The position numbers and the translations under genes were made by a program. Positions 895 through 25,916 of a stretch of DNA of 64,000 nt are shown here, piece after piece (within the stretch, counting starts at the first letter, position 1; each line of letters begins with the position of its first letter). The stretch comes from Escherichia phage RB14, in sequence record NC_012638.1. One strand, 5' to 3'. A model generated the notes under the pieces. That model was given only the letters and a program-made list of their open reading frames with translations. It searched no databases and had not been told where the DNA came from.

Positions 895-1910
895 TGTGTT
901 GCCTCTACATATAGCTGATTTGCATATTGAATAAGTGCTTCACGGTCAGAATCAGTGATGTCTGGAATTGCATTAATATACTCTTCCATTAATGTCTGAA
1001 GCGATTGGACTTCAACTTCTTCACTGTCATCTGACTCGACAGAGTTATCAATCTTTGACACAACTCGTAATGAATGCACAACTTTTTCTAGTTCAGATTC
1101 GAACTTCGTCAGATTTTTGTCTACCTCAGTTACTATAACACGTACTGATAGATTTGTAAAATCTTTATAGTCAATTTTTCCTTTAAATGGATAATGAATT
1201 CTACGATGCCAGGTAGTATTGTTTGGAATAAATTCCATTCGTTCTGTTTCTGTATCAAACATCCAGAACCCACGAGGGTCATTCTCGTCACCTGCAGTTA
1301 GTGTCCATGGTGTCCCAATATATCTGACGTTTGCAGCCTCAGAGATAGTATGGAAGTGACCAGACCACACTTCTTTATAAGTCTTAAGGAAATCAGGTTC
1401 AAGACCGTGAGATTTCATTCCTTTATAAAAATAAAATCCATTCAGTTCCCAGTGACCAACACAAAAAGAAGCAGATGAAGTTTTGATATGCTCAAGAATT
1501 TCACCAGTATTTTCTTCGCACATCCAAGGAATTAAATCAATCAAACATCCGTCAAAATCTACTGTAGTAGGCTTATCATATACTTTAACATTAGGATATT
1601 TAGCCAAAAGCTCAGTAGAAGCATTTGGATGCATTACATTTTTGTAGTGGAGATCGTGATTTCCTACAATAGTATGTAATGTGATTCCAGCACCATCAAG
1701 CATTTGAACTATTTCACGGGCAAACTCCATAGTTTTATGCGTGATCGCTTTTCGCACATCAAAAATATCACCGTATTGAATCCATACCGTAATTCCATTT
1801 TTCTTAGAATATTCTATCGCTTGCTTAATTCCATCAATTTGAATACCGCGAATCCACTCATCATCAGCTTTAACGCCTAAATGCCAATCACCTAAATTTA
1901 GAATTTTCAT
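891..1910 (-). CDS. 47: Recombination nuclease subunit gp47 (Mre11/SbcD-like)
   Basis: 339 aa as in T4; phosphoesterase motifs DWHLG, GNHD, GHWE; synteny with 46 and a-gt. Confidence 0.93.
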   Translation of the reverse strand: MKILNLGDWHLGVKADDEWIRGIQIDGIKQAIEYSKKNGITVWIQYGDIFDVRKAITHKTMEFAREIVQMLDGAGITLHTIVGNHDLHYKNVMHPNASTELLAKYPNVKVYDKPTTVDFDGCLIDLIPWMCEENTGEILEHIKTSSASFCVGHWELNGFYFYKGMKSHGLEPDFLKTYKEVWSGHFHTISEAANVRYIGTPWTLTAGDENDPRGFWMFDTETERMEFIPNNTTWHRRIHYPFKGKIDYKDFTNLSVRVIVTEVDKNLTKFESELEKVVHSLRVVSKIDNSVESDDSEEVEVQSLQTLMEEYINAIPDITDSDREALIQYANQLYVEATQ

Positions 1911-2047
1911 ATATCAAGAACCGTCATTGAAATGCAAAATAAAATTATTGAAATAAATCCATCTGGAGTGCTAAAGAACCCAATCCAACATGCTCTAGTG
2001 AATAGATAAAATGCAAGAAAAAGTATCACATATCCAAGAAATATCAT
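1907..2047 (-). CDS. small hydrophobic protein (46 aa)
   Basis: Manually read ORF MIFLGYVILFLAFYLF...; stop overlaps gp47 ATG. Confidence 0.35.
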   Translation of the reverse strand: MIFLGYVILFLAFYLFTRACWIGFFSTPDGFISIILFCISMTVLDI

Positions 2048-2073
2048 TATATCAAACTCCGTATAAAGCTAAA

Positions 2074-2085
2074 GGGCCGAAGCCC
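2074..2085 (-). terminator. Hairpin GGGC-UUCG-GCCC after a-gt
   Basis: Stable tetraloop stem with U-rich flanks on both strands. Confidence 0.5.
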
Positions 2086-2086
2086 T

Positions 2087-3289
2087 TTATTTTGTAATAA
2101 TATCAAACTGTTCTTTAAAGCAGAAGCTTGAATCTTGATGCTGATACAAAAATTCATATGCTTTTTCTCGCTCACGGTCATAAAGAGCTCGGTCAGATGA
2201 CAGTTCTTTAATACGTTCAAACGTTGATTCCATATCATTTTCATCAAACCAAATGATACCGCTATCATGCGAGGTCAAAGGAGTATTATCAACACGGAAT
2301 TTTAAATTTTCGCCAGTAGATTTCCAAAATACCGGAATTGTTCCACATGCACCAAGCTCGAGATGAGTATATTCTAAAGAGCGTTGTAGATATTTTTTAT
2401 CCAACTTACTCAACTGATAACCAAAACCGGATTTACTCATACGTTCAAGCATTTCGCTATTTACATAACGGTCAAGAATTTGCGTTGGCAAATTAGGAGC
2501 AATTTTAATTTGGTCTACTTGATGAAGACGATAATACTCGTATGGAATTCCTTTTTCTTTAATGGGAATGAACGCTGGAGAACGTTCCAGACCTTCCATA
2601 ATAGTACTTAGTCCTGCAGGTTTAAGATGTTTTTCATGAAAATCAAACATCTGATAAAAACCTTTCCACGTAGTCGTACGACCAATCCAACGGTTAATAT
2701 TCATGTTAATTTCAGAAACATCTTTCCAGTAGGTTGACCGAACCTTCGCAATATCCATAGGAGGCTGAAAGTTATATACGGTCGGTGCTTCTTCAATATC
2801 ATCAAACAGAGAAACTGTTTCAGGATACCATTCTTTCATCAGAACTTTATTAAAATCGCCATTATCAGAATGACTAAAAATAACATCAGCTCGACGAACA
2901 GTTTCTTCTAATCCCAAATTTCGACGCAAAGAAAGAGAAGAATGGTCATGTTGATAAACTACAACACGAACCGAAGGTTTAATGTTATCAATAATTTTTT
3001 TATAGTTATTAATAGTGTCTTCTTCAACTGAAGTAGCAGGAACTGAATTGATAATTAGAATATCACAATCATTTACCAGCTTAAGTGTTTTATCGTATTC
3101 TTTTGCCAATAAAACCGGAATTGAAAATGATTTATAATCATGTGCACAGTTACGAGTAAATGATTTATCTTTAGCATAAACCAAAGTTACTTCATGACCA
3201 TTTTTAATAAACCAATCACGTTGCTCGAGTGAGAATTTTGTCACACCACAACCTTCAAGACCTCGAGCCATAAAAATACATACTTTCAT
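2087..3289 (-). CDS. a-gt: DNA alpha-glucosyltransferase
   Basis: 400 aa; long stretches match T4 AGT as remembered (FMARGLEGCGVTKFSLEQRDWFIKNGHEVTLVYAKDKSF...). Confidence 0.92.
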   Translation of the reverse strand: MKVCIFMARGLEGCGVTKFSLEQRDWFIKNGHEVTLVYAKDKSFTRNCAHDYKSFSIPVLLAKEYDKTLKLVNDCDILIINSVPATSVEEDTINNYKKIIDNIKPSVRVVVYQHDHSSLSLRRNLGLEETVRRADVIFSHSDNGDFNKVLMKEWYPETVSLFDDIEEAPTVYNFQPPMDIAKVRSTYWKDVSEINMNINRWIGRTTTWKGFYQMFDFHEKHLKPAGLSTIMEGLERSPAFIPIKEKGIPYEYYRLHQVDQIKIAPNLPTQILDRYVNSEMLERMSKSGFGYQLSKLDKKYLQRSLEYTHLELGACGTIPVFWKSTGENLKFRVDNTPLTSHDSGIIWFDENDMESTFERIKELSSDRALYDREREKAYEFLYQHQDSSFCFKEQFDIITK

Positions 3290-5924: not shown

Positions 5925-6056
5925 TTAAATTTTCCAGTTACCGTTTTCATCAATAAATTTAATCCAGTCATTTACTGACCACTTAGTTGTATCGCCTTTT
6001 GGAGTAACATTTAAAGTATATAGCCCTTGCTTAAAAAGCATTCGTTTGATATTCAT
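5925..6056 (-). CDS. small hypothetical protein (43 aa)
   Basis: Manually read ORF MNIKRMLFKQGLYTLNVTPKGD... Confidence 0.3.
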   Translation of the reverse strand: MNIKRMLFKQGLYTLNVTPKGDTTKWSVNDWIKFIDENGNWKI

Positions 6057-6063
6057 ATTTTCC

Positions 6064-6402
6064 TCAGCTGTAACGATAGCACTCGTTTGATTTACGCTTA
6101 GCAACTAGTTGAGAAGTATTATAATCAAAATCATCGTCAATGTAAACAGATTTTTTCAACTTTCTTACTTCACCACGCAGTTGACGATTCAATTCATTCT
6201 TAACCTCTGAATCAACACCTCGCATACGTCGCCATTTATCTGAACGAAAAATGTTTTCAACCATATCTTTATGACTTACCCCATCAGGAGCTTTACGCTT
6301 TCCGAAATAGTCATAATCGCGCACTTTTAAATCTTTACGACGATACGTTTTACCCATGGAGTTTAATTTCCTTAGCAACTGAACTAAATACAGCACGGTC
6401 AC
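6064..6402 (-). CDS. hypothetical basic protein
   Basis: ORF track 112 aa; alternative start at 6357. Confidence 0.5.
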   Translation of the reverse strand: MTVLYLVQLLRKLNSMGKTYRRKDLKVRDYDYFGKRKAPDGVSHKDMVENIFRSDKWRRMRGVDSEVKNELNRQLRGEVRKLKKSVYIDDDFDYNTSQLVAKRKSNECYRYS

Positions 6403-6532
6403 AAATCATCTGTTTATGTAACTTGAGTATAAGATAATAAACTTCAAAACCGTTTACATAAGTAACACGAACAACATTACCATTAATAAAATAATACTGT
6501 CCCTTTTTAATTTCTTTATCAACCACAACCAT
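6350..6532 (-). CDS. hypothetical protein
   Basis: ORF track 60 aa; early promoter and GAGG SD immediately upstream. Confidence 0.45.
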   Translation of the reverse strand: MVVVDKEIKKGQYYFINGNVVRVTYVNGFEVYYLILKLHKQMICDRAVFSSVAKEIKLHG

Positions 6533-6562
6533 ATCAATTCCTCAAAGGCAATTCATATGTTA

Positions 6563-6593
6563 ATAATACCACAGTTTGAACTTCTTGTAAACA
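6563..6593 (-). promoter_or_regulatory. Early (sigma70-type) promoter
   Basis: Minus strand GTTTACA-N17-TATTAT upstream of ORF 6350..6532. Confidence 0.55.
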
Positions 6594-6663
6594 ACTTTGT
6601 GAAAATTATTTTAGGGAATGATAAGAAGGGAACGATAGCTTAGAATGGTAATATACAGAATGT

Positions 6664-6687
6664 GAAAAAGAAAGGCCCAGAGGGCCC
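6664..6687 (-). terminator. Rho-independent terminator after nrdH
   Basis: GGGCC-CUCU-GGGCC stem then UUUCUUUUUC. Confidence 0.6.
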
Positions 6688-6690
6688 GTC

Positions 6691-7014
6691 TTAGTCTTCT
6701 ATGATATCTCTATCATATCCAAGTGAAATGAGAGTTTCTTTGAAGTGTTTAATGTTCTTTTGTCTAGAATCATTAATGAAAATGACTGGATAACGAATGT
6801 TAAGAGATGTGAATCCAGCGCGTTTAGCAAGAGATACAATCAGCGGACGATCATACTCAATCTTACCGTTATTTGTAAGAACTTTATAGAAAGTAAAAGG
6901 AGCATTGAGCTCCTTTAGAAGTTTTGTAACTGATTGACATCCAGGACAACGACCTACTTCTTCGGGGATGCCATAGATTTCAATCTTATTCTTTAAGTTC
7001 GAGTTTTGTTCCAC
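6691..7014 (-). CDS. nrdH: Glutaredoxin-like NrdH
   Basis: CPGC redox motif; about 107 aa from GTG at 7014 with AAGGAA SD; ORF-track version 6691..7143 is probably over-extended. Confidence 0.7.
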   Translation of the reverse strand: MEQNSNLKNKIEIYGIPEEVGRCPGCQSVTKLLKELNAPFTFYKVLTNNGKIEYDRPLIVSLAKRAGFTSLNIRYPVIFINDSRQKNIKHFKETLISLGYDRDIIED

Positions 7015-7297
7015 GAGAAATAATTCCTTGATAAGCCCAGTATGGCGGGTTAACAGAATCCTCACCAGAGTTTTCTTCAGGAAAATAAACCTGGATAACG
7101 AAGCCGGATTCATCAAAGGTGAAATAAGTAGTAGGCAGTTCACCTAACAAATCGGCACGAGCGTTGATTTCTTCGAGGTCTTGTTCACGTCCAGCCCAGA
7201 AGCTTGGGTTCAGACTACATTCATAGAAATAATAGTCATTACCGAACATATCAAAACCATTCCAACTCTCTACTACATACCGCTCAAAACTAATCAT
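6986..7297 (-). CDS. hypothetical protein
   Basis: ORF track 103 aa. Confidence 0.5.
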   Translation of the reverse strand: MISFERYVVESWNGFDMFGNDYYFYECSLNPSFWAGREQDLEEINARADLLGELPTTYFTFDESGFVIQVYFPEENSGEDSVNPPYWAYQGIISRGTKLELKE

Positions 7298-7299
7298 AA

Positions 7300-7515
7300 T
7301 TAAGCCTTTTTATCAAGAACAGCATTCAGCTTGTTAGTAATTTTATCCAGACGCTCATTAAACTCACTAGAAGATAAGCCCTTTTCTGGAGAAATTAAAC
7401 TAATCACGAAAAATATAGCAATAAAAGGAATAAGGAAAATAGCTCCAACTGCCATAAACAGAAAGAATGTTACAGTTGTAAGAAAATCAGCTAAACCTTT
7501 ACGAAATTTATACAT
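7300..7515 (-). CDS. small membrane protein
   Basis: 71 aa; long hydrophobic segment TVTFFLFMAVGAIFLIPFIAIFFVISLI. Confidence 0.5.
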   Translation of the reverse strand: MYKFRKGLADFLTTVTFFLFMAVGAIFLIPFIAIFFVISLISPEKGLSSSEFNERLDKITNKLNAVLDKKA

Positions 7516-19847: not shown

Positions 19848-20861
19848 TCATTTATAATAACTTCGATGGTTTTTAAGATAGACCTTCTCAAGGAAGTCAT
19901 CCCAGAAACCCATGTCTACTTTTTGCTGCATACCGTTCTTAGAAGCTTCAATAGATGCTGCTTCTACTTGATCGACCACATCTTCCAAAAACTCTTGAAC
20001 GGTTTTAAATGGATGTTTACCCAACTTCACGTCGAGAATAAATGGAGCATCTTGGAGTGGATAAACCAAGTCACCAGTTTTGTAAATTTCCAATAGTTGG
20101 AGTCCACCACGACAAGCATGACTCAAAGCTTTCCAGTCAATGCCTTCATTGGCTTCGGCCTTACGGGCACGTTCACCATATTCAGCATCTAATTTGTTCA
20201 GTGACTGCTTAAGCTCAATAAGAGAAAGCGTCGTCTGATATTTACGACCCAACACAGTGTAGAACGTTTGTGGGCCTGTTTTCTCATGATTATGGAACAC
20301 CCATTCACAGAATTCGTTTTCTGGAAGACGATGCTTAATATCTTCAACTTTAGTGCGACGCTGCTTAATAGAACCATCTTCTTGGTAATCAACCCATTGC
20401 TCAGGGATTTGATTAACTACTTTCAATACATCACGTAATGCAGCCAAACGAGAACCCTTGACACCGTATTTAGAAGCTTGCTTGCGGACATATCCTAAAT
20501 ATGATTTCATGTTAGTCGTATAAAAACGAGAACGGTTGTCTTGAATAAACTTCCACACATCAGGCAAATCAGATTTAACCACTAGTTCAGGTGGAGTGTG
20601 AAGCATATCTAATGCTACGGTTTCACCATCTGCTGCTAATTTAAAGAAATATTTAAGACTGTATAGTTCATGGTCAATATCATCTTTAGTGTTTTTAGAT
20701 GATGTGTTGTTGGTATTTTTACTCATATGCTCTTTAACATTTCCGATAAGAATATCACGAGCAGGAGGAACAAAGATTTCTTTAAAATCTACATCAGATT
20801 CTGGAGTAGAAGTTCCATAAAGATGACTACCAAAATAGCTTTTCATTACTGTTTTCATCAT
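19848..20861 (-). CDS. Pol-beta superfamily nucleotidyltransferase-fold protein
   Basis: 337 aa; N-terminal GS-x10-DVD (YFGSHLYGTSTPESDVDF) and downstream VALDML acidic site. Confidence 0.55.
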   Translation of the reverse strand: MMKTVMKSYFGSHLYGTSTPESDVDFKEIFVPPARDILIGNVKEHMSKNTNNTSSKNTKDDIDHELYSLKYFFKLAADGETVALDMLHTPPELVVKSDLPDVWKFIQDNRSRFYTTNMKSYLGYVRKQASKYGVKGSRLAALRDVLKVVNQIPEQWVDYQEDGSIKQRRTKVEDIKHRLPENEFCEWVFHNHEKTGPQTFYTVLGRKYQTTLSLIELKQSLNKLDAEYGERARKAEANEGIDWKALSHACRGGLQLLEIYKTGDLVYPLQDAPFILDVKLGKHPFKTVQEFLEDVVDQVEAASIEASKNGMQQKVDMGFWDDFLEKVYLKNHRSYYK

Positions 20862-21319
20862 TCAGCCTTATATTCAATAACAGGACATACTTTAGCTTTA
20901 CGAGCTTTTAAAAATTCAACGATAACCGATTTCTTGGGTTGAATAGGAGGTAAACCTTTATACGCCCTATCAATATTTTCTACGTGTAAAGCATAATCCT
21001 TTTTCCATTTATAATCTTTATATTTTTCACGCAAATGTGCAGGAATAACAAATGAACCGATAATAAGTAAAACAACCAAAAGCGCAAGTATAAATGCTGA
21101 TGGAAGCAAAGTCCATAAACTACCGAAAATAAGCCAACGTTGTAGGCTTTCTACACAAATAATTGTTAGCCCTACGAGTATAGCACATCCAAAAATAGAA
21201 ACGAAAAATGTAGGAATGGCAATAGACCAAAAATATGCGCATAGTGTCTTAGGTCGTTGCCATTCATCGTTAAACAATTTGAATAATTTATAATGCCAAG
21301 AGTTTTCATTAATAATCAT
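20858..21319 (-). CDS. membrane protein
   Basis: 153 aa; two or three hydrophobic helices. Confidence 0.5.
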   Translation of the reverse strand: MIINENSWHYKLFKLFNDEWQRPKTLCAYFWSIAIPTFFVSIFGCAILVGLTIICVESLQRWLIFGSLWTLLPSAFILALLVVLLIIGSFVIPAHLREKYKDYKWKKDYALHVENIDRAYKGLPPIQPKKSVIVEFLKARKAKVCPVIEYKAE

Positions 21320-21321
21320 AA

Positions 21322-21843
21322 TTATCCTTTCATTGAAGGCGTAACGGTTGTTAAATACTTAATCATAGCTTCAGCTTCTGATTTTGATAATGAAATTTCT
21401 CCATTGTTTTGACGAATAGAAATAAAATCTGGATGACGGTCACCACCAGCTTTTAAAACACACATATAAGTATCAACTTCGCCTTCAATATTTGAAATGA
21501 TTGAAGCAGTTCCACATGAATGTGGTTTTTGATAAATCAATACAGCTTTTCTTCCACCGTTTGACTGTTCATAGGCTTTTAATACATCAAGCAAATCAGT
21601 TCTTTTATCAATAGCTAAAATGTTATTTTCATCTTCAATGTTAAATCCTTCGGATACTTCATAAAGTGTTACCCATAAATCACCAATGTCAATAACAGCA
21701 TTTACGTTTCCACGGCTTTCAAGAGTATGACAAATTTTCTTGATTTCGTCATAACTCATTTTAATAATATCATCTCCTTGAATAAGAAAGATGTCATTTT
21801 TAAATTCAACACGAATTAAACCACTTCCACTTGAAATAAACAT
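21322..21843 (-). CDS. hypothetical protein
   Basis: ORF track 173 aa. Confidence 0.5.
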   Translation of the reverse strand: MFISSGSGLIRVEFKNDIFLIQGDDIIKMSYDEIKKICHTLESRGNVNAVIDIGDLWVTLYEVSEGFNIEDENNILAIDKRTDLLDVLKAYEQSNGGRKAVLIYQKPHSCGTASIISNIEGEVDTYMCVLKAGGDRHPDFISIRQNNGEISLSKSEAEAMIKYLTTVTPSMKG

Positions 21844-21998: not shown

Positions 21999-22403
21999 TT
22001 AAACAGTTTCATCATTCTGATCGCAAGCGTTAGTAATAATAGCATTGCAATTTTTAAGCCATTTTAAACTATGTTTTCTTTCATTAGAATAATAAAAATA
22101 TTTAATCTTAGTTATAAAATTATCCCAATTATTAATTGATAAGCATATTGACTCGCTTTCAATATTAAATCCTGGGCATAAAGAATAAAAATGAATTTTA
22201 TGCTCATCATTAATGCTTACAATTTTATCAGTATAAGGATTTTCAATTTTGGTTAAATGAATGATTTCACTAGGCGTAAAATACAGCATATCGTCTTCTT
22301 GTGTCAAACGATACATATTATTTACTTTTTCTATAGCCAATTCACCAAAAAGTGAACTAACTTCTAATACTAATCGTTTCATATTAATCCTTTTTAATGG
22401 CAT
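21999..22403 (-). CDS. hypothetical protein
   Basis: ORF track 134 aa. Confidence 0.45.
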   Translation of the reverse strand: MPLKRINMKRLVLEVSSLFGELAIEKVNNMYRLTQEDDMLYFTPSEIIHLTKIENPYTDKIVSINDEHKIHFYSLCPGFNIESESICLSINNWDNFITKIKYFYYSNERKHSLKWLKNCNAIITNACDQNDETV

Positions 22404-22662
22404 GAATTTGTTCTAAAATTTTAGAGTATTCCTTTATATCAGATTTACGTACAATCGATACACTATAAGGCATACTATCGGTGTCTTTTATAAAGCGTTC
22501 CAAATGACACTCTAACAAAATTTCTGGATTATAAATCGTGTACATCAAATTACCTGTTGCTCCACGATATTGACAGATTTCTACTGATTGAGCATCATTC
22601 CACAATTTTGTTAAGACTAAATCACCTACTTCTAATTTAGGAAAGCCCATGTTATTCACCAA
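22384..22662 (-). CDS. hypothetical protein
   Basis: ORF track 92 aa. Confidence 0.45.
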   Translation of the reverse strand: MVNNMGFPKLEVGDLVLTKLWNDAQSVEICQYRGATGNLMYTIYNPEILLECHLERFIKDTDSMPYSVSIVRKSDIKEYSKILEQIHAIKKD

Positions 22663-22837
22663 TTAAAGTTTCAATATAAGAATCAAGATTTACTTTAGCT
22701 TCTTCCATAAGAGTTTTGTATTTAATCTTGTTAGCATGTCCGGAGAAAGCTAATTCATCAATAACTGTTGCTGTATGAACAGCTTTGCTATATGTTTCAA
22801 TTAATTCTCTTAATTTAAAAGCCTGCTCACTTGTCAT
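22652..22837 (-). CDS. small helical protein, TxEQ family member
   Basis: 61 aa from ATG at 22837 (track start is GTG); MTSEQAFKL...YIETLIGE. Confidence 0.45.
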   Translation of the reverse strand: MTSEQAFKLRELIETYSKAVHTATVIDELAFSGHANKIKYKTLMEEAKVNLDSYIETLIGE

Positions 22838-22969
22838 CACATACTCCTCTGAATCATATCAATAATGTTATTCACCAGATTATAGGTAAACAAAGGATAA
22901 TTATATTGAATCATCACATACACAACAAACAAAACTTTCATTCTCTTCTCCTTGGCAGTTGACAAGATT

Positions 22970-22999
22970 ACTATACCATAACCTTGCCAACTTGTAAAC
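22970..22999 (-). promoter_or_regulatory. Early promoter
   Basis: Minus strand GTTTACA-N17-TATAGT. Confidence 0.5.
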
Positions 23000-23001
23000 C
23001 A

Positions 23002-23175
23002 TTAAATGACGTTTTCGATAAAATTCTGAAGCTTTGTATGAGCATCAACCATGATTTTCATTTCTTCTTTGGCGAAAGCTGTACCTCTTTCCCGAGAAGA
23101 ACATTCATAGTCAGAAACTGCGTTAGCATATTCTTCAATTAGTTTCATTAAAAACATCTGCTTTTCAGTTTTCAT
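23002..23175 (-). CDS. small helical protein, possible TxEQ family member
   Basis: Manually read 57-aa ORF MKTEKQMFLMKLIEEY... Confidence 0.35.
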   Translation of the reverse strand: MKTEKQMFLMKLIEEYANAVSDYECSSRERGTAFAKEEMKIMVDAHTKLQNFIENVI

Positions 23176-23359
23176 TATTCCACCTAATCATTTCAAGATA
23201 TTGAACTAGCTTAGCTTTAGATTTATCCAAATCCTTTTTAGCTGCTTCTATACCGTCGTATGAATATCCTTCACAATGCTCAACTGCTAATTGATATGAA
23301 TCTATTTCAATATCACGTGCTAATTTAATGATTTTTTCAAACTGTTCGCGTGTTAGCAT
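23165..23359 (-). CDS. small helical protein, TxEQ family member
   Basis: 64 aa MLTREQFEKIIKL...LVQYLEMI. Confidence 0.45.
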   Translation of the reverse strand: MLTREQFEKIIKLARDIEIDSYQLAVEHCEGYSYDGIEAAKKDLDKSKAKLVQYLEMIRWNNEN

Positions 23360-23361
23360 AC

Positions 23362-23565
23362 TTACACTCTCGTATTATGATCGATAATTTCATCAAGAAA
23401 CATATCTAACGCTTCTATAGCATTATCCACTTTAGTTTCAAAGTCTTTAATGCCTTTATTCGAAATACCCGATGAATACCAAGCAAAGTCAATCAGCTCT
23501 TCATCTGCTTTGCGAATTGAAGCCACTAATTCCTTGATTTTATCCGCTTGCTCTACACTAACCAT
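23362..23565 (-). CDS. small helical protein, TxEQ-like
   Basis: 67 aa from ATG at 23565 ([13 protein letters not shown]...). Confidence 0.45.
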   Translation of the reverse strand: MVSVEQADKIKELVASIRKADEELIDFAWYSSGISNKGIKDFETKVDNAIEALDMFLDEIIDHNTRV

Positions 23566-23753
23566 TATTCCACCACATATGAAAGAGAGAATATTGCACA
23601 CGCCATATGAGTTGCAACTTCATCACACATATTATAACGTTTCTTAAGAAGTTCTACAAGTTCTTCACTGGTAACTTCATCCATGTCGACGAAAAAATCA
23701 CCATTAATGATGACGTAGATATTTCCTTCTTGATTAAGTGCTTCAATTTTCAT
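23565..23753 (-). CDS. small hypothetical protein
   Basis: 62 aa from ATG at 23753; track N-terminus translates promoter/leader. Confidence 0.45.
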
Positions 23754-23781
23754 GATGTTCTCCTCTTTATCCGATGGTTGT

Positions 23782-23811
23782 ATAGTACCACGGCTCAAAC
23801 GAAAAGTAAAC
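23782..23811 (-). promoter_or_regulatory. Early promoter
   Basis: Minus strand GTTTAC-N18-TACTAT; follows hairpin terminator. Confidence 0.55.
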
Positions 23812-23820
23812 CGGTAAAAT

Positions 23821-23843
23821 GAAAAAAGTCTCCCGAAGGAGAC
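23821..23843 (-). terminator. Rho-independent terminator
   Basis: GUCUCC-UUCG-GGAGAC then UUUUUUC. Confidence 0.7.
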
Positions 23844-23848
23844 TAATG

Positions 23849-24235
23849 CTATTCGAGGGAAAGAAGATATTTACTTTGGTAAAACATTCCAGTAATATCA
23901 TCTATCGTGCTTTGGATGGCTGGAGGCATTTCTTTATAAATGCTGTTAGATTGGTCTAGTATGCGATCAATCATTTTAATTGTGTCGGTAGGAAGTTTAC
24001 TGGCATCTGGAATTGAAGGCGTGTATTTTCTACCAGAATACCCCAAATATTGCTCACCAAATTTATCAATCAAATCTGGCAACTCGGAGAAAATAAAATC
24101 GTATGCTTTGTGTCTAGCATAACTTTTAGTTTCAAAATGTGCAGAATGAAAATAAGCTTGTGCAGCCATTAATAAACCTAAGTATTCATCTGCCTTTGAA
24201 GGTTTTCCACTTTGTGAAAAGTCGCTGAATTTCAT
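23849..24235 (-). CDS. hypothetical protein (rI.1 position)
   Basis: ORF track 128 aa; downstream of rI. Confidence 0.5.
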
Positions 24236-24525
24236 TCAGTCTCCAATTTAATGTTCATAATTCTAGCGTATGATTGTGCCATCTCCGCGCCTCGTTCTAT
24301 ACATTCAAAATCAGAAGAGCACGGGTCATTTTTATAGGTCGTTCTCATAAAACTATAGAATTGTTCAGACGATTCTACGCTTTTATTTTCAAAAAGTGTA
24401 TAAACGTGCCTAATACCAGATTCCATAAATTTATCAAAATGAGGATCGACATTCGCTTCAATCGATGGAGATAAAACAAATGACAATCCTAGCATGGCAA
24501 AAAGTGCCGTTGCTTTTAAGGCCAT
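24232..24525 (-). CDS. rI: Lysis-inhibition regulator RI (antiholin)
   Basis: 97 aa; N-terminal signal-anchor MALKATALFAMLGLSFVLSPS; position next to tk. Confidence 0.8.
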   Translation of the reverse strand: MALKATALFAMLGLSFVLSPSIEANVDPHFDKFMESGIRHVYTLFENKSVESSEQFYSFMRTTYKNDPCSSDFECIERGAEMAQSYARIMNIKLETE

Positions 24526-24537
24526 AAAGGCCTCCTA

Positions 24538-24750
24538 TCATTTTTGTCCTGTATTTACTTTATGCCGATGCACGGCCTTAACTTTATCAAGGTATTTTTC
24601 AAAATTTCGCAATCTAGTATAGTCTGCCGGAGATTGGTTGAGCGATACTTCTCGACGCAAAGCTGAAATGATATTTCCAACTTCCCTACGAATTTCATCT
24701 AATTGAAGCACAGTAAGATTGCGAAGTTGCTTTTCAGTTAATTGTAGCAT
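24538..24750 (-). CDS. hypothetical protein (rI.-1 position)
   Basis: ORF track 70 aa; TATAAATA late motif upstream. Confidence 0.5.
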
Positions 24751-24775
24751 ATATACCCCTTTAGTTAGATAAACC

Positions 24776-24783
24776 TATTTATA
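24776..24783 (-). promoter_or_regulatory. Late promoter motif TATAAATA
   Basis: Exact TATAAATA on minus strand upstream of ORF 24538..24750 and rI. Confidence 0.45.
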
Positions 24784-24792
24784 ACTTTTGCA

Positions 24793-25374
24793 CTAACCGA
24801 GCTTTTTAGTTAATTCATTCCAATGTTTTCTACACAAAGAAACATAAATTTCATCACCAATACAGATTTGATTACCTTCTTTAACTGGTGTTCCATCTTC
24901 CATTAATCGAGCTGTCATAATCGCTTTTTTACCGCAATGACAAACTGCTTTTAGTTCAATAAGTTTATCTGCAATCGCTAAAAGTTCTTTAGAACCTTCA
25001 AACAATTTTCCAGCGAAATCAGTCCTTAATCCATAAGCCATAACAGGAACATTATATGTATCAACAATTCGGCTCAATTGATGCACTTGTTCAGTTTTTA
25101 AAAACTGAGCTTCATCTACAAATACGCAATGAATATCTTTTTGTGCTTCAGCCCATTTATAGAACTCGAAAATATCCATATCATCTGTAATAATATTCGC
25201 TTCCTGCTTAATTCCAATGCGAGAAACAACTTCACAGACAGAATCGCGAGTATCAATAGCAGGCTTAAGAACTAATACACTCATTCCACGTTCTTTATAA
25301 TTATGTGCAGCAGTCAAAAGAGAAGCAGATTTTCCAGCATTCATTGCTGCATAAGTAAAAATTAAACTCGCCAT
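24793..25374 (-). CDS. tk: Thymidine kinase
   Basis: 193 aa; P-loop AMNAGKS; C-terminal Cys pairs CHCG / C..C. Confidence 0.93.
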   Translation of the reverse strand: MASLIFTYAAMNAGKSASLLTAAHNYKERGMSVLVLKPAIDTRDSVCEVVSRIGIKQEANIITDDMDIFEFYKWAEAQKDIHCVFVDEAQFLKTEQVHQLSRIVDTYNVPVMAYGLRTDFAGKLFEGSKELLAIADKLIELKAVCHCGKKAIMTARLMEDGTPVKEGNQICIGDEIYVSLCRKHWNELTKKLG

Positions 25375-25375
25375 T

Positions 25376-25564
25376 TTAGTCCTTAGTTAAATTTTCTAAA
25401 TATGTTTCTAAATCATTTTCAGCTTTATCGATAGATTTTACTAATTCGTAATATGTTTCGGCATCTCCATAATCAGAAGATAATTCAAAAGACAAATCCT
25501 TTTCTAAACTAATAATTTCACCAACTAAAAATAATATTTCGTTCTTTTGTTCGCGAGTAATCAT
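25376..25564 (-). CDS. small helical protein, TxEQ family member
   Basis: 62 aa MITREQKNEILFL...TYLENLTKD. Confidence 0.45.
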   Translation of the reverse strand: MITREQKNEILFLVGEIISLEKDLSFELSSDYGDAETYYELVKSIDKAENDLETYLENLTKD

Positions 25565-25746
25565 AAAGAATTTATATAATCAATGAGTTCTTGTTCTTTA
25601 TTATCGAATTCTTTAGAAAGTTCTTCGTATTCATTTGCATTAAAAGGACCGCATTCATCACAAACTTTTTCCAATTCACTGTTTTTATCCATAACTTCGT
25701 GGATAAGAGAAAAGAGTTTGTCTTTTTGTTCTTTGCTTAAACTCAT
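25561..25746 (-). CDS. small helical protein, TxEQ family member
   Basis: 61 aa MSLSKEQKDKLFSL...LIDYINSL. Confidence 0.45.
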   Translation of the reverse strand: MSLSKEQKDKLFSLIHEVMDKNSELEKVCDECGPFNANEYEELSKEFDNKEQELIDYINSL

Positions 25747-25748
25747 AT

Positions 25749-25916
25749 ATTAATTTCCAAAAGTTTTAAAATAATTCGCTTTTGCTTAAATATTTCCACA
25801 GTTAAATGATCAGTATCTTTTTGACCAATTCCAATGGCAAAACCTTTATTAACAGCGAGTTCAATTAAATTATCAAGTTCACGTAACACTTCATATTGTA
25901 ACTCAGAACTATTCAT
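25749..25916 (-). CDS. small hypothetical protein (55 aa)
   Basis: Manually read ORF MNSSELQYEVLRELDNLIEL...; ATGA overlaps on both sides. Confidence 0.35.

What the first reader, a model, noticed from the sequence alone, without database searches (positions are those of the whole stretch)
22652..25746. Multigene family of about 60-aa helical proteins flanking rI and tk
At least five small ORFs (22652..22837, 23165..23359, 23362..23565, 25376..25564, 25561..25746, possibly 23002..23175) share a pattern: M-x-(T/S)-x-EQ near the N-terminus, an internal acidic stretch, and a C-terminal Y-(L/I)-E-x-(L/I). They are linked by overlapping start/stop codons, as expected for translationally coupled paralogs.
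Basis: seen in the sequence. Interest (0 to 1): 0.55.

Follow-up and report, generated by a model that had tools for sequence, protein, structure and literature searches.

The report
Small helical-hairpin phage protein family
Six tiny genes around the rI and thymidine-kinase genes of this T6-like phage are true, very old copies of one another; the family is already catalogued as Pfam DUF7438 (T4 genes mobD.2a, mobD.3, mobD.4, tk.1, tk.2), and nobody yet knows what the proteins do.

Summary
The window is a T6-like Tequatrovirus (97.6% identical to T6). The five ORFs and the "possible" sixth are the T6/T4 genes RB14ncORF103c, mobD.2a, mobD.3, mobD.4, tk.1 and tk.2. All six match Pfam PF24219 (DUF7438) at 55-69 bits against a cutoff of 25.

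A profile built from any five finds the sixth as the next-best of 672 window ORFs. No composition-matched shuffle, out of 3000 per protein, reaches the real score. A wider family profile finds exactly six members in the window. rI.1 and RB32ORF110c are not members.

AlphaFold predicts an acidic two-helix hairpin (pLDDT 91) that resembles Rop in fold only. In T4 the orthologues are transcribed early, detected as proteins, and dispensable in the laboratory. Orthologues are under purifying selection (dN/dS 0.06-0.17). Copy number runs from 0 to 6 across T4-like genera, and the copy directly upstream of tk is the most widespread.

The function is unknown. My best inference is a set of dimerising binder modules that each act on a different host or phage protein. 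The paralogy was already recognised by Pfam and PHROGs, so the finding is correct but not new.

The parts
25561..25746 (-). tk.2 orthologue, 61 aa, DUF7438 member. Acidic (pI 4.3), with C-x-x-C in the loop.
   Evidence: Pfam PF24219 E 5e-19, 68.8 bits. AlphaFold2 hairpin H5-30/H34-60, pLDDT 90.8. Named Tk.2 in T6. 4-nt ATGA overlaps with the upstream RB32ORF110c and the downstream Tk.1.
25376..25564 (-). tk.1 orthologue, 62 aa, DUF7438 member. It ends 1 nt before the tk start codon.
   Evidence: Pfam E 4.6e-15, 56.2 bits. Leave-one-out E 6e-6. No Shine-Dalgarno sequence and an ATGA overlap with tk.2.
23362..23565 (-). mobD.4 orthologue, 67 aa, DUF7438 member.
   Evidence: Pfam E 2.9e-15, 56.8 bits. 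Leave-one-out E 1.6e-4. phrog_653. The T4 copy is 60 aa and carries an internal deletion.
23165..23359 (-). mobD.3 orthologue, 64 aa, DUF7438 member.
   Evidence: Pfam E 1.5e-17, 64.1 bits. Leave-one-out E 9e-5. dN/dS 0.15-0.17 against T4 and Dhakavirus VR5.
Overlaps mobD.3 by 11 nt.
   Evidence: Pfam E 3.7e-15, 56.5 bits. phrog_2758. Leave-one-out E 4.6e-3, the weakest of the six. Found in 490 phage records. Frameshifted in the T4 reference.
22652..22837 (-). RB14ncORF103c orthologue, 61 aa, DUF7438 member. Absent from T4.
   Evidence: Pfam E 1e-14, 55 bits. phrog_4859, which carries the unsupported label 'helicase loader'. Present in only 191 phage records, against about 500-600 that carry the other members.
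23782..23811 (-). Probable mobD.5 early promoter (GTTTAC, 18-nt spacer, TGgTACTAT), placed to drive mobD.5-mobD.4-mobD.3-mobD.2a.
   Evidence: Read from the sequence and conserved in T4. A mobD.5 promoter transcript at 3 min after infection is reported for T4 in PMC1702504. The consensus scanner did not call it (8 of 12 matches).
23827..23844 (-). Intrinsic-terminator-like hairpin followed by a T run, between rI.-1 and mobD.5. It separates the rI unit from the mobD cluster.
   Evidence: 7-bp stem, 4 G-C pairs, tail TTTTTTCATTT.
22970..22998 (-). Sigma-70-like promoter site (TTTACA, 17-nt spacer, TG-TATAGT) upstream of mobD.2 and ORF103c.
   Evidence: 10 of 12 matches with an extended -10. This is a consensus match only, not tested.

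Best explanation
**What it is (confidence about 0.97).** These are six anciently duplicated, protein-coding members of the phage family Pfam DUF7438. They are the T4/T6 genes tk.2, tk.1, mobD.4, mobD.3 and mobD.2a, plus RB14ncORF103c. They lie in two clusters on either side of the rI.-1/rI/rI.1/tk block of a T6-like Tequatrovirus.

Each encodes an acidic 57-67-residue antiparallel two-helix hairpin. The conserved positions are structural:
- an N-terminal helix cap (T/S-x-E-Q);
- a heptad a/d hydrophobic core, with Ala or Ser in the central layers;
- a loop glycine;
- a C-terminal L-x-x-Y/F-[LIV]-x-x-[LIV].

The surface positions are free to vary.

**How it most likely works (inferred, confidence about 0.35-0.4).**
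- The proteins are made early in infection. The mobD cluster has its own early promoter. tk.2/tk.1 are read from the vs-tk early transcript, with tk.1 probably coupled translationally to tk.2.
- The hairpins pair into Rop-like four-helix bundles, as homodimers or as heterodimers between paralogs.
- Each paralog then acts as a stoichiometric binder of a different host or phage protein. That makes them conditionally useful host-takeover or counter-defence accessories rather than enzymes or structural proteins.
- Duplication and divergence on a fixed scaffold, with lineage-specific gain and loss (0-6 copies), is the way such a binder repertoire would evolve.

**Shown versus inferred.** Homology, the predicted fold, early expression, detection as protein, dispensability, purifying selection and copy-number variation are shown. 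Dimerisation, the existence of any binding partner, and the host-takeover or counter-defence role are inferred.
For: - **Homology.** Pfam DUF7438 at 55-69 bits against a cutoff of 25 for all six. Leave-one-out profile rank 6 of 672. 0 of 3000 shuffles reach the real score. Exactly six hits in the window with a 38-sequence profile.
- **Fold.** AlphaFold2 gives pLDDT 90.8 with helices 5-30 and 34-60. The best fold matches are generic hairpins and four-helix-bundle protomers: Rop TM 0.86-0.93 at 1.1-1.5 A rmsd, and CsoR/FrmR.
- **Core pattern.** Hydrophobic positions fall at 11, 14/15, 18, 25, 28 and 40, 43, 47, 54, 57/58, 61. Ala or Ser occupies 21 and 50. Extra hydrophobic residues appear at 12, 15, 19 and 58.
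- **Charge.** pI 4.2-5.3 for all six.
- **Expression in T4.** mobD.3 and mobD.4 give early RNA and early protein. tk.1 and tk.2 give early RNA and middle protein (PMC9697503, supplementary files 4 and 6). A mobD.5 promoter transcript is reported in PMC1702504.
- **Dispensability in T4.** All five genes are scored 'Not Fit' in CRISPRi-ART (PMC11879866, supplementary file 15). The segment nrdC.11-mobD.3 can be deleted (PMC9825161).
- **Selection.** dN/dS 0.06-0.17 for Tk.2 and MobD.3 orthologues.
- **Copy number.**
  - Within about 8 kb of tk: Mosigvirus 4, Dhakavirus 3, Jiaodavirus 1, and none in six other T4-like genera.
  - T6 has 6, scanned genome-wide.
  - T4 has 4 intact copies plus one frameshifted.
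  - ORF103c occurs in only 191 records.
- **No functional signature.** No enzyme, membrane or DNA-binding family was hit in Pfam, NCBIfam or PDB sequences.
Against: - No partner, oligomeric state or phenotype is known for any member, and no paper on the family was found.
- The fold is so simple that structural matches carry no functional information. All Foldseek E-values are 0.1 or worse.
- A multimer prediction could not be run.
- The one natural two-domain relative (P0033) gave a low-confidence model (pLDDT 69).
- Knock-downs show no fitness effect on the laboratory host. That fits a conditional role, but it equally fits a marginal one.
- The persistent position directly upstream of a kinase gene could point to a phage-internal role instead (rival 1).
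Confidence: 0.4

Rival explanations
1. **Kinase-linked accessory.** The ancestral DUF7438 protein is a small partner, chaperone or regulator of the phage thymidine kinase, or more broadly of P-loop nucleotide or polynucleotide kinases in the dNTP-synthesis machinery. The mobD-cluster copies would be later duplicates that may have taken on other partners.
For: - A DUF7438 gene lies immediately upstream of tk, abutting or overlapping it, in:
  - Tequatrovirus (window and T4), Mosigvirus and Jiaodavirus JD18, where it is the only copy;
  - the Edwardsiella PEi20-like genomes AP014714/5, and a 173-kb metagenomic T4-like contig with two tandem copies.
- In L015/L016 a divergent member overlaps the start of an AAA_33 P-loop kinase gene. 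That kinase aligns weakly with the kinase domain of T6 PseT (22% identity, E 8e-5).
- The weak candidate PseT.1 lies upstream of pseT.
- Tk.1 lacks its own Shine-Dalgarno sequence, and tk starts 1 nt after its stop codon.
Against: - Six T4-like genera have tk but no detectable DUF7438 gene within 8 kb, so Tk does not need one.
- Four of the six copies here lie 1.2-2.7 kb from tk, in a separate transcription unit.
- In Dhakavirus VR5 an endonuclease gene separates Tk.2 from tk.
- One member sits in a non-T4-like phage contig with no kinase nearby.
- Gene adjacency in tightly packed T4 early regions is weak evidence.
Confidence: 0.15
2. **Rop-like RNA binder.** The hairpins dimerise like ColE1 Rop and bind structured RNA, for example to modulate the stability or translation of early phage or host transcripts.
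For: Rop is among the best structural matches and covers nearly the full length (TM 0.86-0.93, rmsd 1.1-1.5 A). It is the same size, about 60 aa. The genes sit in a region rich in RNA-directed functions such as regB and vs.
Against: There is no sequence relationship to Rop: hhalign probability 0.1%, no Pfam Rop hit at E up to 1, and Rop absent from the PDB sequence hits at E up to 10. Foldseek E-values for Rop are 3.7-5.2. The variable surfaces show no conserved polar or basic face across paralogs, and all members are acidic.
Confidence: 0.07
3. **Acidic nucleic-acid mimic or anti-defence decoy array.** This is a specific sub-case of the best explanation. Each paralog would block a different host nuclease, restriction or defence protein by mimicking DNA or RNA charge.
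For: All six are acidic, with pI 4.2-5.3 and net charge -2 to -10. They are expressed early and are dispensable on a defence-poor laboratory host. They lie in a variable region that also holds an Acb2/Tad1-type gene and a macro-domain gene in related genomes. The best PDB sequence hit is an anti-CRISPR protein, though at a non-significant E of 0.044.
Against: No significant similarity to any known anti-defence protein. The charge is moderate for three of the six. There are no genetic data.
Confidence: 0.2
4. **Chance or non-coding.** The ORFs would merely look alike because AT-rich helical peptides share composition, or they would be non-functional remnants.
For: Pairwise similarity is mostly not significant. 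The T4 mobD.2a copy is frameshifted. Knock-downs have no phenotype.
Against: The leave-one-out profile and shuffle tests exclude chance. The Pfam scores are 30-44 bits above the cutoff. Orthologues show dN/dS 0.06-0.17. Four T4 orthologues are detected as proteins. MobD.2a is found in 490 phage records, 488 of them covered over at least 80% of its length.
Confidence: 0.02
5. **Helicase loader**, as written on ORF103c and MobD.2a orthologues in several RefSeq records and in phrog_4859.
For: Only the label itself.
Against: - The proteins are 57-61 aa hairpins that match DUF7438 and nothing else.
- T6 encodes the real gene 41 helicase loader, gp59 (663 nt), elsewhere in its genome.
- The sister paralogs fall in PHROGs of unknown function.
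- The T4 gene carrying this kind of label (mobD.2a) is dispensable.
Confidence: 0.01

Closest known systems
Pfam PF24219 (DUF7438); PHROGs 653, 2758 and 4859; T4 genes tk.1, tk.2, mobD.3, mobD.4, mobD.2a
   Same: The six ORFs are members. Their scores lie far above the gathering cutoff, they match the model over its full length (57 positions), and they are near-identical to the T6 and T4 genes of those names.
   Different: Nothing differs in kind. This genome carries six intact copies. The T4 reference has four intact copies plus a frameshifted mobD.2a and lacks ORF103c. PHROGs splits the family into three groups that cross-hit each other.
ColE1 Rop/Rom (63-aa helical hairpin, homodimeric four-helix bundle, RNA-binding)
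   Same: The size, the antiparallel two-helix hairpin, the a/d core with small residues in the central layers and the acidic charge all match. TM-score 0.86-0.93.
   Different: There is no detectable sequence relationship. Dimerisation and RNA binding are untested. This is a fold analogue, not a family member.
CsoR/FrmR-type helical-bundle protomers and other generic hairpins (Mediator Med11/22, designed helical hairpins)
   Same: Similar helical-hairpin geometry (TM 0.8-0.87).
   Different: The E-values are not significant (0.6 or worse). Those proteins have a third helix and metal- or ligand-binding residues that are not conserved here. The Cys residues in Tk.2, MobD.3 and MobD.2a are not conserved across the family.
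Small early T4 accessory proteins that bind host proteins (such as AsiA, Arn, Stp and Dmd; from general knowledge of T4 biology)
   Same: They are small, expressed early, non-essential on laboratory hosts, and encoded in variable regions among other accessory genes.
   Different: There is no sequence or specific structural similarity to any of them, and no target is known. The analogy is functional only and is inferred.

Membership tests
Pfam DUF7438 (PF24219) | Whole-protein HMM score above the curated gathering cutoff (25 bits) | tested here: met
   55.0, 56.5, 64.1, 56.8, 56.2 and 68.8 bits for the six ORFs. The neighbours RB32ORF110c, rI.1 and MobD.5 have no hit.
Pfam DUF7438 (PF24219) | Single-domain protein of about 57-67 aa that covers the whole 57-position model | tested here: met
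   The matches span model positions 1-57, or 4-57, in proteins of 57-67 aa. 32 of the 36 hits among 1.84 billion representative proteins are 50-76 aa.
Pfam DUF7438 (PF24219) | Mutual detectability that does not depend on the Pfam model | tested here: met
   Leave-one-out profiles recover each omitted paralog at rank 6 of 672. 0 of 3000 shuffles reach the real score.
Pfam DUF7438 (PF24219) | Common fold (two-helix hairpin) with the conserved N-cap and the C-terminal Y/F-[LIV]-x-x-[LIV] motif | tested here: met
   AlphaFold2 on the family alignment gives pLDDT 90.8. Only Tk.2 was modelled explicitly.
Rop (ColE1 Rom/Rop, Pfam Rop family) | Sequence or profile similarity to Rop | tested here: not met
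   hhalign probability 0.1%. No Pfam Rop hit at E up to 1. Rop is absent from the PDB sequence hits at E up to 10.
Rop (ColE1 Rom/Rop, Pfam Rop family) | Hairpin protomer geometry | tested here: met
   TM 0.86-0.93 and rmsd 1.1-1.5 A to 1rop, 1nkd and 4do2, but Foldseek E 3.7-5.2.
Rop (ColE1 Rom/Rop, Pfam Rop family) | Homodimeric four-helix bundle that binds RNA kissing complexes | not testable with these tools
   No multimer prediction or binding assay was available.
T4 gp59-type helicase loader (label of phrog_4859) | Similarity to gp59, or any evidence of helicase loading | tested here: not met
   Only DUF7438 is hit in Pfam. T6 has a separate gp59 gene of 663 nt. The label is confined to one of the three PHROGs that cover the family.
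Known anti-defence, anti-CRISPR or DNA-mimic proteins | Significant sequence or structure match to a characterised member | tested here: not met
   The best PDB sequence hit is the anti-CRISPR chain 23aa_A at E 0.044, with fragmented short alignments. No BFVD or PDB fold hit has E below 0.1.

The most novel reading that the evidence does not exclude
DUF7438 proteins form an expandable array of Rop-like dimeric hairpins in which paralogs homo- and heterodimerise. Each surface variant would neutralise a different host defence or nucleic-acid-handling protein. The family would have started as a partner of a nucleotide kinase (the tk-adjacent copy) and been recruited repeatedly, which would explain the 0-6 copy-number range among T4-like phages. 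The evidence here neither supports this specifically nor excludes it.
Probability: 0.15. Interest if true: 0.6.

Novelty: already known. Interest (0 to 1): 0.27.

Why it matters
T4-type phages carry more than 100 small early genes of unknown function. Families that have multiplied inside one genome are good candidates for host-range or counter-defence factors.

This analysis gives a clean definition of one such family:
- six members here, with exact coordinates;
- a fixed hairpin scaffold with variable surfaces;
- early expression and detection as protein;
- dispensability on laboratory hosts;
- a copy-number range of 0-6 across T4-like genera;
- an ancestral position next to tk.

That makes the family a tractable target for a multi-gene knockout and for pull-down experiments. 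It also flags an unsupported 'helicase loader' label that is spreading through RefSeq annotations. It does not reveal a new kind of system.

Tried and rejected
- **rI.1 (24538-24750) as a seventh member.** One leave-one-out profile gave E 0.013. The hit vanished with the broader profile and hhalign gave a probability of 1%. Rejected.
- **RB32ORF110c (25743-25916), a 57-aa ORF in tandem with tk.2.** No HMM hit and hhalign probability 0.5%. Rejected.
- **PseT.1 of T6 (outside the window).** HMM E 1.5e-3, hhalign probability 58% over only 24 columns, and no Pfam hit. Left as inconclusive.
- **Homology to Rop.** Rejected.
- **Search of PDB sequences with the family profile.** Nothing significant.
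- **Fold searches against PDB and BFVD.** Only generic hairpins and uncharacterised phage proteins.
- **The search for related loci with the family alignment.** It failed because no stretch was conserved enough.
- **tblastn of the divergent members P0041 and P0043 against cultured phages.** One weak hit and none, respectively.
- **AlphaFold of the 119-aa two-domain relative P0033, as a proxy for a dimer.** Low confidence (pLDDT 69) and uninformative.
- **Tk.2::Tk.1 hybrid proteins (P0005, P0008) as evidence for unequal crossing-over.** No current phage record encodes P0005, and the current UFV-AREG1 record has both genes. I do not rely on them.
- **Literature searches for DUF7438 and the gene names.** No functional study found.
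- **DNA-level repeats between paralogs.** Only 18-26-nt similarities at the 5' ends, so the duplications are old.

Full report
**Where we are.** The 3.9-kb region is 97.6% identical to phage T6 and matches 632 phage records, almost all of them Tequatrovirus. All genes here are on the minus strand. In transcription order the T6 annotation reads:
- vs.1, vs, tk.4, tk.3, RB32ORF111c, RB32ORF110c
- tk.2, tk.1, tk
- rI.1, rI, rI.-1
- mobD.5, mobD.4, mobD.3, mobD.2a, mobD.2
- RB14ncORF103c, RB14ncORF102c, mobD.1

**Is the similarity real?** Yes.
- All six match one curated model, Pfam PF24219 (DUF7438). Scores are 55-69 bits against a 25-bit cutoff, over the full length of the model. The neighbouring small ORFs RB32ORF110c, rI.1 and MobD.5 do not match.
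- Pfam was probably built from orthologues of these same genes, so I tested independently. A profile built from any five of the window's proteins finds the sixth directly after the five training sequences among all 672 stop-to-stop ORFs of the window (E 6e-6 to 5e-3). The best unrelated ORF scores E 0.013 or worse.
- None of 3000 composition-preserving shuffles of each left-out protein reaches its real score.
- The family is very old. Pairwise comparisons are mostly not significant (best Tk.1-Tk.2, E 3e-4). At the DNA level only 18-26 nt around the start codons still resemble each other.

**How many members?**
- A broader profile of 38 sequences, made from the window's six plus database relatives, finds exactly six members in the 64-kb window and nothing else below E 0.2.
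- Scanning the rest of the T6 genome adds only a weak candidate, PseT.1 (E 1.5e-3; hhalign probability 58% over 24 columns; no Pfam hit).
- rI.1 and RB32ORF110c are not members.
- An exhaustive HMMER scan of 1.84 billion representative proteins finds only 36 clusters at E 1e-3 or better. 32 of them are proteins of 50-76 aa. The family is small.

**Anatomy of the protein.**
- AlphaFold2 on the family alignment gives a confident two-helix antiparallel hairpin for Tk.2: helices 5-30 and 34-60, pLDDT 90.8.
- The conserved columns are structural:
  - Met1 and a hydrophobic residue at position 2 or 3;
  - a T/S-x-E-Q helix N-cap;
  - a/d heptad positions 11, 14/15, 18, 25, 28 and 40, 43, 47, 54, 57/58, 61;
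  - Ala or Ser at the central layers 21 and 50;
  - a loop Gly.
- The remaining columns have high entropy.
- All six proteins are acidic, with pI 4.2-5.3.
- Fold searches return only generic hairpins: Rop at TM 0.86-0.93, CsoR/FrmR, Mediator Med11/22 and designed hairpins. No E-value is below 0.1.
- There is no sequence link to Rop or to any solved structure.

**Expression and importance.** These results come from the T4 literature, for orthologues that are 95-97% identical in protein for the three compared (Tk.1, Tk.2 and MobD.3).
- mobD.3 and mobD.4 give early RNA and early protein. tk.1 and tk.2 give early RNA and middle protein. mobD.2a gives early RNA but no detected protein (PMC9697503 supplement).
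- The missing MobD.2a protein fits the T4 reference, where mobD.2a is broken by a frameshift into two pieces that each still hit the profile.
- Knock-down of each of the five T4 genes is scored 'Not Fit', meaning no fitness effect (PMC11879866 supplement).
- The segment nrdC.11-mobD.3 can be deleted from T4 (PMC9825161).
- Orthologue comparisons give dN/dS 0.06-0.17 wherever there are enough substitutions. The genes are therefore maintained by selection.

**Transcription and translation signals.**
- A terminator-like hairpin (23844-23827) follows rI.-1.
- Right after it lies GTTTAC-18-TGgTACTAT (23811-23782). It is conserved in T4, where a mobD.5 promoter transcript has been observed (PMC1702504).
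- The mobD cluster is therefore probably its own early unit. tk.2 and tk.1 belong to the vs-tk unit.
- Tk.1 has no Shine-Dalgarno sequence and overlaps tk.2 by ATGA, so coupling is plausible there.
- ORF103c, MobD.2a and MobD.4 have their own good Shine-Dalgarno sequences.
- Overlaps occur with non-family neighbours as well. They are a property of the region, not of the family.

**Distribution.** I scanned about 8 kb on each side of tk in other T4-like genera.

| Genus (phage) | Members found |
|---|---|
| Mosigvirus (AV112) | 4 |
| Dhakavirus (VR5) | 3 |
| Jiaodavirus (JD18) | 1, directly upstream of tk |
| Tegunavirus, Muldoonvirus, Karamvirus, Slopekvirus, Krischvirus, Tulanevirus | 0 |

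- For Krischvirus only about 1.3 kb on the rI side of tk was available.
- More distant members again sit directly upstream of tk in the Edwardsiella PEi20-like genomes and in a 173-kb metagenomic T4-like contig, which has two tandem copies.
- One member overlaps the start of an AAA_33 P-loop kinase gene.
- One member lies in a 45-kb non-T4-like phage contig.
- Among relatives of this phage, ORF103c is present in only 191 records. MobD.2a is in 490, and about 500 records carry a near-identical tk.
The tk-adjacent copy looks ancestral.

**What it most likely does.**
- Nothing in the sequence suggests an enzyme, a membrane protein or a classical DNA-binding domain.
- A 60-residue hairpin with a widened hydrophobic stripe usually needs a partner helix pair. 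The simplest solution is a Rop-like dimer. This is inference.
- The family combines a fixed scaffold, freely varying surfaces, early expression, conditional dispensability, purifying selection within orthologues and lineage-specific expansion. That combination is what one expects of small binder proteins, each titrating a different host or phage protein.
- I commit to that reading at about 0.35-0.4.
- The main rival, at about 0.15, is a role tied to thymidine kinase or nucleotide kinases, suggested by the repeated adjacency.
- An acidic decoy or anti-defence role is a sub-case I cannot separate from the main reading.
- A Rop-like RNA-binding role is less likely.
- Chance similarity and the 'helicase loader' label in phrog_4859 and RefSeq are rejected.

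**Novelty.** The genes have had names since the T4 genome annotation. Their relatedness is already encoded in Pfam DUF7438 and, partly, in phrog_653. No functional paper was found. The finding is correct and ordinary: a known family of unknown function. The added value here is the statistical confirmation, the fold, the member count, the copy-number map and the kinase-adjacency lead.

Noticed in passing
window 22384-22650 (-): The ORF just downstream of ORF103c is a Phage_tudor (PF24144) protein, E 5e-39. It is present in T6 (RB14ncORF102c) and, together with ORF103c, absent from T4. The same domain recurs in the mobD-equivalent region of distant T4-like genomes.
   Followed up: partly
L002 (T4 AF158101) 5997-6178 (-): The T4 reference mobD.2a (annotated as 38 aa) is a frameshifted copy. 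Its N- and C-terminal halves lie in two reading frames and both hit the family profile (E 1.5e-8 and 7e-6). No MobD.2a protein was detected in the T4 proteomics data.
   Followed up: yes
L005 (T6 MH550421) 1876-2106 (-), outside the window: PseT.1 (76 aa) has M-I-S-x-x-Q at its N-terminus and L-x-D-Y-I-Q-S-L at its C-terminus. It may be a very distant seventh member: HMM E 1.5e-3, hhalign probability 58%, no Pfam hit.
   Followed up: partly
window 22652-22837 and 23002-23175; RefSeq records such as NC_054907, NC_042039 and NC_024125: Orthologues of ORF103c and MobD.2a carry the product name 'helicase loader' in several records, apparently inherited from phrog_4859. Nothing in sequence or structure supports the name.
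   Followed up: yes
proteins P0005 (UniRef, phage UFV-AREG1) and P0008 (ENA contig): These are in-register hybrids of the N-terminal half of Tk.2 and the C-terminal half of Tk.1, with two different junctions. However, no current phage record encodes P0005, and the current UFV-AREG1 record has both genes. They may be rare deletion variants or assembly or annotation artefacts.
   Followed up: partly
L015 2277-3622; L016; L021-L024; L008 7834-8600: A DUF7438 gene repeatedly abuts or overlaps the start of a kinase gene. The kinase is tk in many T4-like genomes and an AAA_33 P-loop kinase in two metagenomic contigs.
   Followed up: partly
L006 (Mosigvirus AV112) 7011-7381 versus 6428-7009: The Tk.1 and Tk.2 proteins of this Mosigvirus are 97% identical to the window's, but the adjacent Tk is only 82% identical. 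The tk.1/tk.2 pair appears to have been exchanged recently between genera.
   Followed up: no
window 20858-21843 (-): The mobD homing-endonuclease gene of T4 is missing here. As in T6, two other ORFs occupy its place (annotated 'replaces mobD' and 'similar to mobD.1').
   Followed up: no
L018 (45-kb metagenomic contig) 6001-6180: A clear DUF7438 member (P0041) lies in a phage contig that is not T4-like, with an Sf6-type terminase, NinH and an AAA_25 protein. The family is therefore not strictly confined to T4-like phages.
   Followed up: no
window 23159-23184 and 23549-23574: The ribosome-binding regions and start codons of mobD.2a and mobD.4 share GGTGGAATAATG within a 26-nt repeat (77% identity). 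mobD.3 and tk.1 share 18 nt across their first six codons. These are the only DNA-level traces of the duplications.
   Followed up: partly
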